From assembly GCA_000002445.1 (NCBI GenBank), contig CM000207.1:864001-928000 (forward strand): a stretch of 64,000 bases of DNA. Reading direction: 5' to 3'. A program made the position numbers and the translations under genes. The notes under the pieces are model-generated. The model saw nothing but the letters and a program-made list of their open reading frames with translations. It searched no databases and was not told where the DNA came from. The DNA comes from Trypanosoma brucei. Its lineage: Eukaryota. The number at the start of each line of letters is the position of its first letter. Position 1 is the first letter of the stretch. This document shows, piece by piece, positions 1,854 through 6,038 of the stretch.

Positions 1854-2732
1854 ATGCTTGAGGCTCAGGTTCTGCACGCTAACTTGTGGAAGCGTCTCAT
1901 TGAATGCATTAACGGTCTTGTTAATGAGGCGAACTTCGATTGTAATCCCGGTGGCCTCTCCATTCAAGCTATGGATACGAGCCACGTTGCCCTCGTGCAC
2001 ATGCTGCTTCGCGATGATTGCTTCACGAAGTACCAGTGTGAGCGCAACAGTGTCCTCGGGCTTAACCTCGCTTCCCTTTCCAAGGTGTTGAAGATTGTGG
2101 AAGCAACTGATAGCCTAACGCTCCGCCACGAAGATGATTCCGACGTTGTCACACTAACATCGGAGAATGGAGAGAGGTCTCGCAAGTGTGAGTATCAACT
2201 CAAATTGCTGGAGATTGAGACTGAGGCTATGGGTATTCCTGAGATGGATTACAAATCCATTGTGACCCTAAGTTCCCAGGAATTTGCCAAAATCGTCCGC
2301 GACATGACCGTTTTTGGTGATACTGTCAACATTGAGATTCTCAAGGAGAGCGTTAAGTTCAGTTCGTGTGGCGATGTGGGCGAAGGTTACGCGTTGCTGC
2401 GGGCGAGCCATGCCCCAACAGTTGACCCCCGATCAAAAGGTGAGTCGGATGTCAAAACAGAAGATGAAGAGGCTGACGCTTGCAGTGTCCGCACTCATTC
2501 AGCAAAAGGGAAGGATGGGCCACTGGGTATTGGTGTTGATGTCCGCACTAATGAGCCTATCACGCTGTCATTCGCCCTGCGATTCATGAACATATTCGCA
2601 AAAGGGGCAACACTTAGTGACCGCGTGTCGCTCAAGTTCGCCAAGGAGAGTCCTTGTATGGTGGAGTACAGCATTGATCAAGTTGGGTATCTCCGTTACT
2701 ATCTTGCTCCAAAGGTGGACGACGCCGAGTAA
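1854..2732 (+). CDS. PCNA: proliferating cell nuclear antigen (PCNA), 292 aa
   Basis: Translation MLEAQVLHANLWKRLIECINGLVNEANFDCNPGGLSIQAMDTSHVALVHMLLRDDCF...LAPKVDD is a canonical PCNA N-terminus and fold length. The listed ORF start (1767) is GTG; the first in-frame ATG at 1854 gives the conserved MLEAQ start. Confidence 0.9.
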   Translation: MLEAQVLHANLWKRLIECINGLVNEANFDCNPGGLSIQAMDTSHVALVHMLLRDDCFTKYQCERNSVLGLNLASLSKVLKIVEATDSLTLRHEDDSDVVTLTSENGERSRKCEYQLKLLEIETEAMGIPEMDYKSIVTLSSQEFAKIVRDMTVFGDTVNIEILKESVKFSSCGDVGEGYALLRASHAPTVDPRSKGESDVKTEDEEADACSVRTHSAKGKDGPLGIGVDVRTNEPITLSFALRFMNIFAKGATLSDRVSLKFAKESPCMVEYSIDQVGYLRYYLAPKVDDAE

Positions 2733-3535
2733 GTAATGCCTGTTCTCGCGACGCAGAATTTTTGCATTTGTTATCAAGCAGTCATTGAATGGATGAAAGG
2801 AGAAGCGATAGAGGTAAGCATAATGCTTTCTGGGCGTGCATATACATACGTGTGTATGCTTCATAAACGAAAGCTAAAAACAAGACAAGGAAGAAGAAGT
2901 GTGCGTAGAGCGAGCGCCGGCCGCGTCTAAAAGCTTCATCCACAGACTAAGCAAATCATAGATGACCAAGCGGTGATTTCTTTTTTTTCTTTTACCATCA
3001 TTTCCCCCCCCCTGGTGACGCCGGTTCTGAGTCACACTTGTGCGGCGCGTGAAGTGAAATTGCTATAGGGTTCAACTAGCTCTGTCATTTTACTCTTCTG
3101 CGTTTATTGTGGGGATATCCATTTGCCCTTTAGTGATTCGGTGCCATTCATTTGGTGAAGTTGGGGCATGTGAAAATGAGAATCAGATTGAAAGGTACAA
3201 AAGAGGGGTATGTGTGTACGAGCGGAAGTATGTTTAGCCCATTTTCACATATTATTTCCTCTCTTTTTCGTTTGTTTCAGCTGCGTATTTGCCTCATTTT
3301 AATTATTTTTATTATTATTATGGGGAAGCCATACTCTCCAGTCACTTTCGCGGCTACGTATGCAAATGTTTTTCGGTGTCCTGATGTTTCTCTTTCACTT
3401 GTTTTAATTACTCATTCATCTGATGATGCTTCTCTCTGCAGTGGGCACGTGCCTCAGCTACTATAACTCTCTGTTTCGTGTTGAACTTCAGGTTTCCGCA
3501 ACGCCATTCTGCTTCACTTCTTGTCCCTCAAATGT

Positions 3536-3539
<4 letters not shown>

Positions 3540-3567
<28 letters not shown>
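3540..3567. repeat. (TA)n microsatellite, about 14 units
   Basis: Perfect tatatata... run. It lies inside the non-ATG 5' extension of the GlnRS ORF, which argues that the true start is downstream. Confidence 0.95.
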
Positions 3568-3594
3568 GACTTCTGTCGTCGCCTGCGTCTCGGT

Positions 3595-5415
3595 ATGCGC
3601 CTTGGACCAGCTGCAAAAATCCTGATTCATAGGCTATCCCCACCAACGTTCCGCCGCCTTTCTTTGGCCTTTCGTGGACTCATGACAACAACGGTTGATT
3701 CCGCCCCCACTGCTGCCGAGCCCATGTTGGAGGTGAAAAAGGACCTCCGTTTATTGGAGACGGGCCGACCAGTGCAGGGATACTCCAACACGCCAGAGCT
3801 GCTGGCGAAACACCGATCCGTAACGGGTGGTGCTCCGTACTTCCGGTTCCCTCCAGAGCCCAACGGATTTCTTCACATTGGACACGCTAAGAGCATGAAC
3901 CTGAACTTTGGCTGCGCCGTTTCTCATAAAGGAAAGTGCTATTTGCGTTACGACGACACGAACCCGGAGACGGAGGAGCAGCTTTACATTGATTCCATCC
4001 ACGAAATGGTAAAGTGGATGGGATGGGAGCCAGATTGGATTACATACTCTTCAGACTACTTCCAGCAACTTTATGAATTCGCCATTCAGCTCATTAAGGA
4101 TGGAAAGGCGTACGTGGATCACAGCACCGCTGATGAAATGAAGAGGCAGCGTGAAAATCGGGAAGAGAGCCCGTGGCGTAACCGACCGGTGGAAGAGAGT
4201 TTACGACTGTTTGAGCACATGCGTCAGGGGCGCTATGCGGAGGGCGAAGCGACACTCCGCGTAAAGATTGATATGAAGAGCGACAACCCAAATATGAGGG
4301 ACTTTGTTGCCTACCGTGTAAAGTATAATGAGCACCCACACGCCAAGGACAAGTGGTGCATATATCCCAGCTACGATTACACGCATTGTTTAATTGACAG
4401 TTTGGAGAACATTGACTACAGCCTGTGCACCCTCGAGTTTGAGACCCGACGTGAGAGTTACTTTTGGTTGCTCGAGCAGCTGAACCTTTGGCGGCCTCAC
4501 GTTTGGGAGTTCAGCCGCCTCAACGTCACCGGCTCGTTGCTTTCCAAACGCAAGATTAACGTATTGGTGAAGAAAGGTATTGTACGTGGTTTTGATGACC
4601 CAAGGTTGCTGACCCTTGCAGGGTTGCGTCGGAGGGGTTACACGCCAAGAGCTATCAACCGTTTCTGTGATCTTGTTGGTATAACTCGTTCAATGAATGT
4701 GATACAAATTACCATGCTCGAGCATACCCTTCGTGAAGATCTCGACGACTCAACGGAGCGGCGCCTGATGATTATAGACCCCATCAAGGTCGTGATTGAC
4801 AACTGGGACGGTGAGATGGAGGCGGAGTGCCCCAACCATCCACGCAAACCCGAGCTCGGATCGCGTAAGGTAATGTTTAAGAAAACCTTCTACATTGACC
4901 GTAGCGACTTCCGTGTGGAGGATAACGACAGCAAATTCTATGGGCTGGCGCCTGGACGTCGTGCTGTCGGCTTAAAGTACTCTGGCAACATCATGTGCAC
5001 CCACTTTGATTTCGATGAAGCTGGTCAGCCATCGCTTATTCATGTGGAAGTCGACTTCGAGCGTACGACGAAACCGAAGACGAACATCAGTTGGGTTAGT
5101 GAGGCAGGAGCGGTTCCGGTGGAGTTCCGTCTTTACGACTACCTTCTGAGGGATGACCGTGCAGCTGTCGACTCTGACTTCCTAAAGTACATTAACGAAG
5201 ATAGCGAGAAAGTTGTCCACGGTTACGCCGAGGCAGCGATAAGAGAAGCGAAGGTATTTGAATCTGTGCAAGCGGAGCGCTTCGGGTACTTTGTGGTGGA
5301 TCCCGAAACCCGACCAGATCGCCTTGTAATGAATAGAGTGCTGACACTTAAAGAGGACAAGGAGAAAACGGCCATTAGCCGCGGGAACACGGGGGTGAAG
5401 GGAAAGAAACAGTAA
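3595..5415 (+). CDS. glutaminyl-tRNA synthetase (class I), bacterial-like length; alternative in-frame ATG at 3682
   Basis: HIGH motif region FRFPPEPNGFLHIGHAKSMNLNF, ...KWCIYPSYDYTHCLIDSLENI..., VLVKKGIVRGFDDPRLLTLAGLRRRGYT. It aligns by eye along its whole length with E. coli GlnRS and lacks the long eukaryote-specific N-terminal domain. ATG 3595 adds an R-rich amphipathic peptide MRLGPAAKILIHRLSPPTFRRLSLAFRGL ahead of MTTTVDS (3682). Confidence 0.9.
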   Translation: MRLGPAAKILIHRLSPPTFRRLSLAFRGLMTTTVDSAPTAAEPMLEVKKDLRLLETGRPVQGYSNTPELLAKHRSVTGGAPYFRFPPEPNGFLHIGHAKSMNLNFGCAVSHKGKCYLRYDDTNPETEEQLYIDSIHEMVKWMGWEPDWITYSSDYFQQLYEFAIQLIKDGKAYVDHSTADEMKRQRENREESPWRNRPVEESLRLFEHMRQGRYAEGEATLRVKIDMKSDNPNMRDFVAYRVKYNEHPHAKDKWCIYPSYDYTHCLIDSLENIDYSLCTLEFETRRESYFWLLEQLNLWRPHVWEFSRLNVTGSLLSKRKINVLVKKGIVRGFDDPRLLTLAGLRRRGYTPRAINRFCDLVGITRSMNVIQITMLEHTLREDLDDSTERRLMIIDPIKVVIDNWDGEMEAECPNHPRKPELGSRKVMFKKTFYIDRSDFRVEDNDSKFYGLAPGRRAVGLKYSGNIMCTHFDFDEAGQPSLIHVEVDFERTTKPKTNISWVSEAGAVPVEFRLYDYLLRDDRAAVDSDFLKYINEDSEKVVHGYAEAAIREAKVFESVQAERFGYFVVDPETRPDRLVMNRVLTLKEDKEKTAISRGNTGVKGKKQ

Positions 5416-5579
5416 GGAAGGGTAATCTGCGCAGAAGTGTCTTGTGTTCCATGCGCTTATTTATTACGAAAAACGCGAAGGGAGAAGCTTTAGCACGTCT
5501 CAAACTTTCTTTGGGGGGGTTAATGATAGTGCGGTTGCGTGACCGCTGTTTGTTATGTCACACTTGCCCCACCACCATT

Positions 5580-5619: not shown

Positions 5620-5708
5620 GGGGGGGGGGTTCGAGTAAATTTTCAACAACAGAGGCATTGAACTCACGCGCGCTCTGCGTGTACATTGATAGCACTTTAA
5701 GTTTGGTT

Positions 5709-6038
5709 ATGGGCGGCACCGGAGAGGGTAGCGGCCGCGCCGCCTCCCCGCGTGGGGAGTGTCGGAAGGATTATGTACAGTTGCTTCGGACGGCTCTTGG
5801 GGGCAATAAACCCGTAAGCGGATCCACAATAGCGCGACTTGTTAATCAGTACAACCCACAATATGATGTACCTTGTGGCCGGCAGGATATTGAAAACAGT
5901 CGCTACTTAAATGAGGAACTTTGCGAGTTGCTTCTGGACGACCGCCGTGCCAGCGCAAAGTATCATTTGCAAACTGACAAGAGTCTAAAAACGTTCTTGC
6001 AGCTCGTGAGCGAAAACAAGCACATTATGCGAACTTAG
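5709..6038 (+). CDS. small hypothetical protein (109 aa), non-repetitive composition
   Basis: First ATG after the polyY tract. The translation MGGTGEGSGRAASPRGECRKDYVQLLRTALGGNKPVSGSTIARLVNQYNPQYDVPCGRQDIENSRYLNEELCELLLDDRRASAKYHLQTDKSLKTFLQLVSENKHIMRT has normal amino-acid complexity, unlike the surrounding low-complexity ORFs. The listed longer ORF (5442, TTG start) crosses the polyY/G10 tract. Confidence 0.35.
   Translation: MGGTGEGSGRAASPRGECRKDYVQLLRTALGGNKPVSGSTIARLVNQYNPQYDVPCGRQDIENSRYLNEELCELLLDDRRASAKYHLQTDKSLKTFLQLVSENKHIMRT

What the first reader, a model, noticed from the sequence alone, without database searches (positions are those of the whole stretch)
3478..3700. GlnRS has two in-frame ATGs; the upstream one adds an amphipathic R-rich presequence-like peptide
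ATG 3595 yields MRLGPAAKILIHRLSPPTFRRLSLAFRGL, which is basic, hydroxylated and without acidic residues, like a mitochondrial targeting peptide. It is followed 29 codons later by ATG 3682 (MTTTVDS…), leaving only about 50 residues before the HIGH motif. Trypanosome mitochondria are known to contain GlnRS activity (no tRNA-dependent transamidation route), and several T. brucei aaRS achieve dual localisation by alternative trans-splicing that includes or excludes such an extension. A (TA)14 repeat lies directly upstream of the extension (3540-3567), inside the longer non-ATG ORF. The enzyme is bacterial-length (about 577-606 aa): it lacks the eukaryote-specific N-terminal domain.
Basis: partly seen in the sequence, partly recalled or inferred. 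Interest (0 to 1): 0.55.

Follow-up and report, generated by a model that had tools for sequence, protein, structure and literature searches.

The report
GlnRS presequence probably starts at ACG

Summary
The window is T. brucei TREU927 chromosome 9 and the gene is GlnRS Tb09.160.3730. ATG 3595, ATG 3682 and (TA)14 are as described. A third in-frame ATG (3532) was missed; it is the GenBank start of the 627-aa model.

Nilsson 2010 and Rettig 2012 already proposed an MTS-bearing long form made by alternative trans-splicing. Comparative data argue against ATG 3595 as the functional start:
- It is GTG in T. b. gambiense.
- (TA)n varies from 9 to 14 units, so ATG 3532 moves in and out of frame.
- One T. 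brucei-group genome, T. cruzi, T. melophagium, Phytomonas and Novymonas have no in-frame upstream ATG.
- The only AG acceptors between 3491 and 3682 lie downstream of ATG 3595.

What is conserved in 10 kinetoplastid lineages, out to Bodo, is an in-frame extension of 11-18 codons beginning ACG-[F/L]-R-[R/C] (GTG in one lineage). In the window this is ACG 3646. The codon is conserved rather than the amino acid: 9/10 are ACG, against 1 of 74 control columns.

Best explanation: a short MFRR-type presequence initiated at ACG by leaky scanning on the main mRNA, as in yeast ALA1. It is untested experimentally.

The parts
3532..3534 (+). It is the start of the GenBank/GeneDB 627-aa model (MYTYIYIYIYIY...).
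   Evidence: Kolev 2010 Table S1 gives the annotated ORF as 867532-869415, which equals window 3532-5415, and lists it as a misannotated start. It is in frame only in the window and in DAL972; it is out of frame in T. equiperdum and in Logan ERR7929164.
3540..3567 (+). (AT)14 microsatellite, length-polymorphic and therefore non-coding 5' flank.
   Evidence: Unit counts are 14, 11, 10 and 9 in four Trypanozoon genomes, i.e. differences of 6, 8 and 10 nt.
3566..3625 (+). Out-of-frame 19-codon uORF (MTSVVACVSVCALDQLQKS*). Its ATG is formed by the end of the repeat, and it overlaps ATG 3595.
   Evidence: present in all four Trypanozoon genomes.
3595..3597 (+). It is strain-specific.
   Evidence: It is GTG in T. 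b. gambiense DAL972 and in Logan ERR7929164. The 606-aa protein is in no database.
3609..3610 (+). First AG after the pyrimidine-rich stretch 3568-3608. Predicted main spliced-leader acceptor (inferred).
   Evidence: the only AGs between 3491 and 3682 are at 3609 and 3631. Nilsson 2010 reports that the major site is internal to the annotated ORF.
3631..3632 (+). Second candidate AG acceptor (inferred).
3646..3648 (+). Conserved ACG codon, proposed as the non-AUG initiation codon of the mitochondrial isoform.
   Evidence: It is ACG in 9 of 10 kinetoplastid lineages and GTG in the tenth. In the control, 1 of 74 invariant four-fold-degenerate columns keeps one codon in >=9/10 species. The chance from each species' own Thr codon usage is 1e-4.
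3646..3681 (+). Conserved 12-codon extension, (M)FRRLSLAFRGL, proposed as a short mitochondrial presequence.
Evidence: In all 10 lineages it is in frame, has no stop, no internal ATG and no acidic residue, and has a net charge of +2 to +5. It is identical in the four Trypanozoon genomes.
3682..5415 (+). GlnRS coding sequence from the conserved (cytosolic) ATG; 577 aa plus stop.
   Evidence: Pfam PF00749, PF03950 and PF20974. It exactly matches the T. equiperdum annotation SCU67939.1. Orthologue annotations in T. vivax, T. cruzi, T. melophagium, Bodo and others start here.
3874..3885 (+). HIGH signature (residues 65-68 of the short form).
4540..4554 (+). LSKRK, read here as the KMSKS-type loop.
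   Evidence: Position; the assignment to the KMSKS loop rests on general knowledge of class I synthetases.

Best explanation
The GlnRS gene makes two proteins from one main mRNA by using two start codons.

Mechanism:
1. The spliced leader is added at AG 3609/10 or AG 3631/32. This gives a 5'UTR of 71 or 49 nt that contains no AUG. This step is inferred.
2. Most scanning ribosomes pass through to AUG 3682 and make the 577-aa cytosolic enzyme.
3. A minority initiate at the near-cognate ACG 3646, decoded as Met. They make a form 12 residues longer whose N-terminus, MFRRLSLAFRGL, is a typical short kinetoplastid mitochondrial presequence: an Arg doublet right after the Met, no acidic residue, and a second Arg near the junction.
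4. That form is imported and supplies mitochondrial GlnRS. The junction RGL|M may allow MPP-type cleavage, which is speculative.

The ATGs at 3532 and 3595 and the (TA)n tract are fast-evolving 5'-flank features of the T. brucei group. In TREU927 they may add rare AUG-initiated long forms from minor long mRNAs, but they are not the conserved mechanism.

Shown here: the conservation pattern and the positions of the AGs and ATGs. Inferred: the splice site, initiation at ACG, import and cleavage.
For: 1. Ten lineages carry an in-frame extension that starts X-[F/L]-R-[R/C]: T. brucei, T. vivax, T. melophagium, T. cruzi, L. braziliensis, Novymonas, Phytomonas, Bodo saltans and two metagenomic kinetoplastids. 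X is ACG in nine and GTG in one. Both are near-cognate start codons, and they encode different amino acids.
2. The neighbouring codons vary freely at synonymous sites: TTC/TTT/TTG/CTC/CTT and CGC/CGG/CGT/CGA/AGA. ACG does not. In the same ten genes only 1 of 74 invariant four-fold-degenerate columns keeps one codon in >=9/10 species, and none of the 10 invariant Thr columns exceeds 7/10. The product of the species' own ACG|Thr frequencies is 1e-4.
3. The distance from the codon to the ATG is always a multiple of 3 (33, 36, 48, 51 or 54 nt). Over 132 codons there are 0 stops in frame, against 4 and 3 in the other two frames. There are no acidic residues and no internal ATG.
4. An AUG-initiated extension is impossible in T. 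cruzi (two strains), T. melophagium, Phytomonas, Novymonas, the ENA bodonid (stop codon two codons upstream of its GTG) and the T. brucei-group genome ERR7929164.
5. In every lineage a pyrimidine tract and an AG lie 2-41 nt upstream of the codon, with no ATG in between. In T. brucei the only AGs available lie between ATG 3595 and ACG 3646.
6. In L. tarentolae 54 of 55 SL-containing GlnRS reads have a 139-nt 5'UTR, which would contain the ACG block. The annotated long form scores only 0.21 in MITOPROT.
7. T. brucei presequences are often 8-20 aa, and 114 of 336 have an Arg doublet within the first 5 residues.
8. Ribosome profiling reports non-AUG initiation in T. brucei, more so in procyclic forms.
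9. The pattern occurs only once in the whole 64-kb window.
Against: - There is no direct evidence of initiation at ACG 3646: no ribosome footprints, N-terminal peptides or mutagenesis could be consulted.
- The T. brucei context, ccaccaACGttc, lacks the -3A/+5C that marks strong contexts in T. brucei. The -3 position is a purine in 8 of 10 lineages but is C in T. brucei and T. vivax.
- Other in-frame near-cognates precede it on the predicted mRNA: AUC 3619, CUG 3622 and AUU 3625.
- No conserved downstream hairpin that could boost a weak start was found.
- Amphipathicity of the 12-mer is only modestly above shuffled controls (z 0.4-1.9).
- Published SL data describe a minor upstream splice site, and Kolev's 5'-most site maps to window 3548. 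Long mRNAs carrying AUG 3595 may therefore exist in TREU927-like strains.
- In L. braziliensis an out-of-frame ATG lies 76 nt upstream of the ACG. It could be on the main mRNA.
- The ten lineages are not phylogenetically independent.
- Rinehart 2004 and Parsons 2015 could not be read.
Confidence: 0.55

Rival explanations
1. The published model, which is also the first reader's. Alternative trans-splicing gives a rare long mRNA. An upstream in-frame AUG on it (3595, or 3532 as annotated) initiates a 606- or 627-aa precursor with an N-terminal MTS. The abundant short mRNA gives the cytosolic enzyme from AUG 3682, as shown experimentally for T. brucei IleRS.
For: - Nilsson 2010 reports a major splice site internal to the annotated ORF and a minor one upstream, with MITOPROT 0.96 for the annotated protein.
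- Rettig 2012 groups GlnRS with IleRS.
- In L. tarentolae one long and 54 short SL reads were seen.
- Both ATGs are in frame in the window.
- The 29-aa peptide is basic and free of acidic residues.
Against: - ATG 3595 is GTG in two gambiense-type genomes. ATG 3532 is out of frame in T. equiperdum and ERR7929164. ERR7929164 has no in-frame upstream ATG at all.
- On long mRNAs AUG 3595 is the third AUG, behind 3532 and the uORF AUG 3566.
- No AG lies between 3491 and 3609.
- No upstream in-frame ATG exists in T. cruzi, T. melophagium, Phytomonas or Novymonas.
- Nothing upstream of ACG 3646 is conserved between species.
- The L. tarentolae long form has MITOPROT 0.21.
- Genome-wide, ATGs coupled to alternative trans-splicing are not preferentially conserved.
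Confidence: 0.2
2. A non-AUG start is used in T. brucei, but it is a different near-cognate codon. The best candidate is CUG 3622 (context aaaatcCUGa), or GUG at 3595 in gambiense. This would give a presequence of about 20-29 residues that contains the conserved core.
For: - CUG 3622, AUC 3619 and AUU 3625 are in frame between AG 3610 and ACG 3646, and CUG 3622 has A at -3.
- From general knowledge, CUG is usually the most efficient near-cognate start codon.
- Gambiense carries GTG exactly where brucei has ATG.
Against: - These codons have no counterpart in other species; only ACG/GTG directly before [F/L]-R-[R/C] is conserved.
- If the acceptor is AG 3631/32, they are not on the mRNA.
- In the ENA bodonid a stop lies two codons upstream of the GTG.
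Confidence: 0.1
3. The block 3646-3681 is not translated. It is a conserved 5'UTR RNA element involved in splicing, stability or translation control. GlnRS would then enter mitochondria by an internal or cryptic signal in the 577-aa protein.
For: - No direct evidence of translation of the block is available.
- Internal MTSs are discussed for many trypanosomatid aaRSs.
- Pyrimidine-rich UTRs naturally yield F/L/S/P/R-rich, acid-poor conceptual peptides.
Against: - Variation is concentrated at synonymous positions, including CGN/AGA exchanges.
- Length changes are all multiples of 3, and there are no in-frame stops in 132 codons.
- The peptide character is conserved (F/L-R-R, a second Arg, no acidic residue) while the nucleotides diverge.
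- No conserved secondary structure was found.
Confidence: 0.1

Closest known systems
Yeast ALA1 (AlaRS) and GRS1 (GlyRS): the mitochondrial isoform is initiated at upstream in-frame non-AUG codons (ACG ACG; UUG) on the same mRNA as the AUG-initiated cytosolic form (summarised in PMC7600831)
   Same: - One gene for a dually localised aaRS.
- An in-frame near-cognate codon (ACG) a few tens of nt upstream of the cytosolic AUG, with no AUG in between.
- The added peptide has presequence character.
- One metagenomic kinetoplastid even has tandem ACG ACG.
   Different: - Here the case rests on comparative sequence evidence only.
- The extension is much shorter: 11-18 residues, against 23 for GRS1.
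- The mRNA 5' end is made by trans-splicing.
- No non-AUG start of a kinetoplastid aaRS was found in the searchable literature.
T. brucei IleRS dual targeting by alternative trans-splicing (Rettig et al. 2012, PMC3273800)
   Same: - Same organism and the same problem: a single aaRS gene, with all mitochondrial tRNAs imported.
- The long form carries the presequence and the short form is cytosolic.
- GlnRS was predicted in that paper to behave likewise.
   Different: - The upstream AUGs of GlnRS are not conserved even among T. brucei subspecies.
- The AG positions put the likely main acceptor between ATG 3595 and the conserved block.
- The conserved element begins with ACG, not AUG.
Short kinetoplastid N-terminal presequences with an Arg doublet after the initiator Met (Mach et al. 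2013, PMC3673636, and the earlier work cited there)
   Same: MFRRLSLAFRGL is 12 residues long, has RR at positions 3-4, carries no acidic residue and has a net charge of +3. This fits the reported 8-20-aa class and the RR motif found within the first 5 residues in 114 of 336 predicted N-MTSs.
   Different: The initiator would be encoded by ACG rather than ATG. Cleavage and import of this peptide have not been tested.
Canonical eukaryotic GlnRS with the appended N-terminal domain (PF04558/PF04557)
   Same: The catalytic and anticodon-binding domains are 50-57% identical to plant, amoebozoan and heterolobosean GlnRS.
   Different: The N-terminal domain is absent in all kinetoplastid sequences. 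This is already described, and in trypanosomatids the domain is found on AsnRS instead.

Membership tests
Class Ic GlnRS (glutamine--tRNA ligase) | tRNA-synt_1c catalytic domain plus the two class-Ic anticodon-binding domains | tested here: met
   PF00749 at 1.3e-106, PF03950 at 4.8e-21 and PF20974 at 2.2e-19.
Class Ic GlnRS (glutamine--tRNA ligase) | HIGH and KMSKS-type signature motifs | tested here: met
   HIGH at residues 65-68; LSKRK at residues 287-291.
Class Ic GlnRS (glutamine--tRNA ligase) | Specificity for Gln rather than Glu | not testable with these tools
   The closest relatives are all named GlnRS. Biochemistry is in Rinehart 2004, known here only through its citation; the paper itself could not be read.
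Canonical eukaryotic GlnRS with appended N-terminal domain | PF04558/PF04557 N-terminal domain | tested here: not met
   No hit. The domain is absent from all kinetoplastid homologues and present from Naegleria outwards. The absence is also stated in PMC8319005.
Dual targeting by alternative trans-splicing (IleRS type) | An upstream in-frame AUG that is conserved and is the first AUG of a longer mRNA | tested here: not met
   ATG 3595 is GTG in two genomes. ATG 3532 changes frame with (TA)n. No upstream in-frame ATG exists in five other lineages. AUG 3595 is preceded by AUG 3532 and AUG 3566.
Dual targeting by alternative trans-splicing (IleRS type) | Two spliced-leader acceptor sites that flank the upstream AUG | tested here: inconclusive
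   Literature reports a major internal site and a minor upstream site, and a 5'-most site at window 3548, which is non-AG and inside the repeat. Sequence shows AGs only at 3609 and 3631 between 3491 and 3682.
Non-AUG-initiated mitochondrial aaRS isoform (ALA1/GRS1 type) | In-frame near-cognate codon upstream of the cytosolic AUG, with no stop or AUG in between | tested here: met
   ACG 3646 lies 12 codons before ATG 3682. The same layout holds in 10 lineages.
Non-AUG-initiated mitochondrial aaRS isoform (ALA1/GRS1 type) | The codon itself, rather than the amino acid, is under selection | tested here: met
   9/10 lineages have ACG and 1/10 has GTG. Control: 1 of 74 columns. Chance from codon usage: 1e-4.
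Non-AUG-initiated mitochondrial aaRS isoform (ALA1/GRS1 type) | Both start codons lie on the same mature mRNA | tested here: inconclusive
   Inferred from AG and pyrimidine-tract positions and from the 139-nt 5'UTR of the main L. tarentolae mRNA. No read-level data for T. brucei were available.
Non-AUG-initiated mitochondrial aaRS isoform (ALA1/GRS1 type) | Demonstrated initiation at the non-AUG codon, and import of the product | not testable with these tools
   Needs ribosome profiling, N-terminal proteomics or mutagenesis.
Kinetoplastid short N-terminal presequence | Length 8-20 aa, Arg doublet within the first 5 residues, positive net charge, no acidic residues | tested here: met
   MFRRLSLAFRGL has net charge +3 and no Asp/Glu. 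The orthologues have net charge +2 to +5 and none has Asp/Glu. The criteria come from PMC3673636.
Kinetoplastid short N-terminal presequence | MPP-type cleavage motif (Arg at -2 or -3) | tested here: inconclusive
   RGL|M in T. brucei, RAQ|M in T. vivax and RK|M in T. cruzi would fit. Leishmania and Novymonas have Arg at -4, and Bodo has Lys at -1. No predictor was available.

The most novel reading that the evidence does not exclude
An ACG (rarely GTG) start codon followed by [F/L]-R-R has been maintained since the common ancestor of bodonids and trypanosomatids. It produces the mitochondrial GlnRS from the same mRNA as the cytosolic enzyme. I found no conserved, functional non-AUG start of a kinetoplastid nuclear gene described in the searchable literature. 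If real, it would also point to a wider hidden set of mitochondrial isoforms, starting with the many dual aaRSs for which no conserved upstream AUG or N-terminal MTS has been found.
Probability: 0.45. Interest if true: 0.75.

Novelty: new member of a known kind. Interest (0 to 1): 0.6.

Why it matters
Trypanosomatids import all mitochondrial tRNAs. Most of their aaRSs come from single genes, so each enzyme must be split between cytosol and mitochondrion. For most of them the mechanism is unknown, and the 2021 survey of trypanosomatid aaRSs noted that upstream AUGs are not conserved.

If GlnRS uses a conserved ACG start, four things follow:
- The published alternative-trans-splicing prediction for this gene needs revision.
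- The database models of 577, 627 and 662 aa for near-identical genes can be reconciled.
- A concrete sequence signature (near-cognate codon + [F/L]RR just upstream of the annotated AUG) becomes available to search for other hidden mitochondrial isoforms in kinetoplastids.
- A single-codon mutation would give a clean way to remove only the mitochondrial pool of an essential enzyme.

Tried and rejected
- The TREU927 627-aa model (start at ATG 3532, repeat translated as (YI)n) was rejected as a conserved protein. (TA)n differs by 6, 8 and 10 nt among four genomes.
- My first guess was that Nilsson's 'MTS 30 aa' referred to the 606-aa form. I dropped it because GeneDB v4 annotated the 627-aa ORF.
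- A downstream hairpin that might enhance ACG initiation was sought. The 50 nt after the codon were folded in 10 species; z ranged from -3.1 to +1.5 with no consistent structure.
- Per-site spliced-leader counts could not be obtained. Siegel 2010 supplements are not held. The Nilsson supplements carry only Table S7 for this gene. Kolev's table of all mapped sites is cut before chromosome 9. Kolev's single value, the 5'-most site at window 3548, is preceded by AT and lies inside the repeat, so I treat it as doubtful.
- The metagenome scan for more kinetoplastid loci returned one relative at 45% identity and was of no use.
- Rinehart 2004 and Parsons 2015 are not held, and 'Tb927.9.5210' occurs in no held paper.
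- Hydrophobic-moment analysis gives only modest support: z = 0.3 for the 29-mer and 1.1 for the 12-mer.
- No MitoFates, TargetP or MITOPROT was available.


Full report
**What is in the sequence**

The + strand ORF 3478..5415 encodes a class Ic aminoacyl-tRNA synthetase. It has the tRNA-synt_1c catalytic domain and both anticodon-binding domains.

The 577-aa product from ATG 3682 is identical to the T. equiperdum GlnRS annotation. The window is 100% identical to T. b. brucei TREU927 XP_803827.1. Kolev 2010 Table S1 gives the GeneDB v4 ORF of Tb09.160.3730 as chr9 867532-869415. That range has the same length as window 3532-5415, so the window is very probably chr9 864001-928000.

- A third in-frame ATG at 3532, just before the repeat. 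It is the GenBank start (627 aa, MYTYIYIYIYIY...).
- An out-of-frame ATG at 3566 that opens a 19-codon uORF across ATG 3595.
- HIGH is at residue 65 of the short form, so 64 residues precede it, not about 50.

The absence of the eukaryotic N-terminal domain is real. It is shared by all kinetoplastid homologues and is already described.

**What was already known**

- Nilsson et al. 2010 state that Gln-RS has an N-terminal MTS and no separate cytosolic gene, and that its major spliced-leader site is internal to the annotated start. [quoted passage not shown]
- Rettig et al. 2012 proved the mechanism for IleRS and suggested it 'might apply to' GlnRS.
- The 2021 survey of L. tarentolae aaRSs lists GlnRS under verified alternative trans-splicing, on the basis of 54 short reads and 1 long read.
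- That a single gene supplies cytosolic and mitochondrial GlnRS comes from Rinehart 2004, which I know only through its citation.

**Variation within the T. brucei group**

I aligned the upstream region of four Trypanozoon genomes. The four genomes have four different sets of upstream AUGs.

| Genome | (TA)n units | ATG 3532 equivalent | Codon at 3595 |
|---|---|---|---|
| Window (TREU927) | 14 | in frame | ATG |
| T. b. gambiense DAL972 | 11 | in frame | GTG |
| Logan run ERR7929164 | 10 | out of frame | GTG |
| T. equiperdum | 9 | out of frame | ATG |

- The repeat-length differences are 6, 8 and 10 nt, which is why ATG 3532 is in frame only in the window and in DAL972.
- ERR7929164 therefore has no in-frame upstream ATG at all.
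- From 3598 to 3681 the only difference between the four is one synonymous change (CCA to CCG).
- Further upstream there is a frame-shifting indel.

This is the behaviour of a non-coding flank, not of a coding N-terminus. It explains why databases hold 577-, 627- and 662-aa models of one gene.

**Comparison across kinetoplastids**

I translated the frame upstream of the conserved Met in orthologous loci. Nothing upstream of window position 3646 is conserved. T. cruzi (two strains), T. melophagium, Phytomonas EM1, Novymonas and an ENA bodonid contig have no in-frame ATG between the nearest upstream stop and the Met.

All ten lineages nevertheless carry an in-frame block immediately before the Met:

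| Lineage | Block before the Met |
|---|---|
| T. brucei | T-FRRLSLAFRGL |
| T. vivax | T-FRCFFTPLRAQ |
| T. melophagium | T-FRRFSTLFRKK |
| T. cruzi | T-FRRPTLLLWRK |
| L. braziliensis | T-FRRFLPRLAK |
| Novymonas | T-LRRLIPRLAT |
| Phytomonas | T-FRRFVTVFRGRTSIPV |
| Bodo saltans | T-LRRFITTTKPFSVVK |
| JGI metagenomic kinetoplastid | T-LRRTLAPLAA |
| ENA bodonid | V-LRRAGLLASRFNTSKLT |

At the codon level:
- The first position is ACG in nine lineages. It is GTG in the tenth, where a stop codon lies two codons upstream.
- The following Phe/Leu and Arg codons vary freely: TTC/TTT/TTG/CTC/CTT and CGC/CGG/CGT/CGA/AGA.
- The block is always a multiple of three nucleotides long (33-54 nt).
- Over 132 codons it has no stop, against 4 and 3 in the other two frames. 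It has no internal ATG and no acidic residue.

**Is the ACG more than chance?**

- If the position were simply a conserved Thr, the chance that nine lineages all use ACG is about 1e-4, given each species' own Thr codon usage in this gene.
- As an empirical control I used the same ten coding sequences. Of 74 columns with an invariant four-fold-degenerate amino acid, only one keeps the same codon in at least nine species. None of the ten invariant Thr columns exceeds seven of ten.
- The single exception at the focal position is not a synonymous Thr codon. It is GTG, another near-cognate start.
- In the whole 64-kb window, on both strands, this is the only place where ATG or a near-cognate codon followed by [F/L]RR lies within 45 codons upstream of an in-frame Met opening at least 200 residues.

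**Architecture of the mRNA**

Between 3491 and 3682 the only AG dinucleotides are at 3609 and 3631. Major T. brucei acceptors are AG in 98% of cases. A major site 'internal to the annotated ORF' is therefore expected at 3611 or 3633. That is downstream of ATG 3595 and 35 or 13 nt upstream of ACG 3646. The resulting 5'UTR has no AUG.

The same layout recurs in every lineage examined: a pyrimidine tract, then an AG 2-41 nt upstream of the ACG/GTG, with no ATG in between. In L. tarentolae the main mRNA has a 139-nt 5'UTR, long enough to contain the block, and the annotated long form scores poorly as an MTS (0.21).

On any longer T. brucei mRNA, AUG 3595 would be the third AUG, after 3532 and the uORF AUG 3566. 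Kolev's 5'-most site maps to window 3548. It is preceded by AT and lies inside the repeat, so I regard it as doubtful. If it is real, that mRNA still begins with the uORF AUG.

**Proposed mechanism**

With Met decoded at ACG, the product starts MFRRLSLAFRGL-MTTT.... An Arg doublet directly after the initiator Met and a length of 8-20 residues are the described hallmarks of many T. brucei presequences.

All ten orthologous peptides lie above their shuffle means, though only modestly. Ribosome profiling has reported non-AUG initiation in T. brucei, more so in procyclic forms.

I therefore propose leaky scanning on one mRNA. A minority of ribosomes start at ACG 3646 and make the imported form. 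The rest start at AUG 3682. This is how yeast ALA1 (ACG ACG) and GRS1 (UUG) work.

Weak points:
- There are no direct data on initiation at this codon.
- The T. brucei context lacks -3A and +5C.
- Other in-frame near-cognates lie upstream on the predicted mRNA: AUC 3619, CUG 3622 and AUU 3625.
- There is no conserved downstream hairpin.

Literature searches found no proposal of a non-AUG start for a kinetoplastid aaRS. The nearest is a general remark in the 2021 survey. A genome-wide study found that ATGs coupled to alternative trans-splicing are not preferentially conserved.

**Verdict**

- The best-supported reading is a conserved ACG-initiated short presequence. That makes it a new member of a known kind of dual-targeting device.
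- My confidence is about 0.55, pending splice-site counts, ribosome footprints and a one-codon mutagenesis test.

Noticed in passing
window 3540-3567; L001, L002, L003 equivalents: The (TA)n microsatellite sits between a pyrimidine-rich stretch and the first downstream AG. It has 14, 11, 10 and 9 units in four Trypanozoon genomes. Its length sets the frame of ATG 3532 and might also affect acceptor choice.
   Followed up: partly
window 3566-3625: A 19-codon uORF (MTSVVACVSVCALDQLQKS*) starts at an ATG created by the repeat end plus G. It is identical in all four Trypanozoon genomes and would be present on any mRNA spliced upstream of 3566.
   Followed up: partly
window 3532-5415 compared with public protein records: Near-identical GlnRS genes are annotated as 577 aa (T. 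equiperdum), 627 aa (TREU927) and 662 aa (T. b. gambiense DAL972). The 662-aa model exists only because a 2-nt indel upstream opens the frame to an ATG ATG that is out of frame in the window.
   Followed up: yes
window 1854-2732 (+): PCNA (292 aa) lies immediately upstream. The order PCNA, GlnRS, a small conserved ORF, then a MutS homologue is kept from Trypanosoma to Leishmania and Phytomonas. In Bodo and the ENA bodonid contig the upstream neighbour is instead an ankyrin-repeat gene.
   Followed up: partly
window 5709-6038 (+): A 109-aa ORF (MGGTGEGSGRAAS...) with no Pfam hit on record lies downstream of GlnRS. Gene calls of 95-121 aa occupy the same position in T. vivax, T. melophagium, T. 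cruzi and Leishmania loci. Their homology to it was not checked.
   Followed up: no
window 3004-3012 and 5620-5629: Homopolymer runs C9 and G10 lie in the intergenic regions flanking GlnRS. Another G-rich run occurs near 5513.
   Followed up: no
L014 543-551 (JGI metagenome contig Ga0493797_01219406): A distant kinetoplastid-like GlnRS has two consecutive ACG codons before L-R-R, the same tandem arrangement as the ACG ACG start of yeast ALA1.
   Followed up: partly
window 3724-3726: A further in-frame ATG (Met15 of the short form, MLEVKK) sits at the start of the conserved LEVKKDL block. Orthologues have V, I or F there, so it is probably just an internal Met.
   Followed up: no
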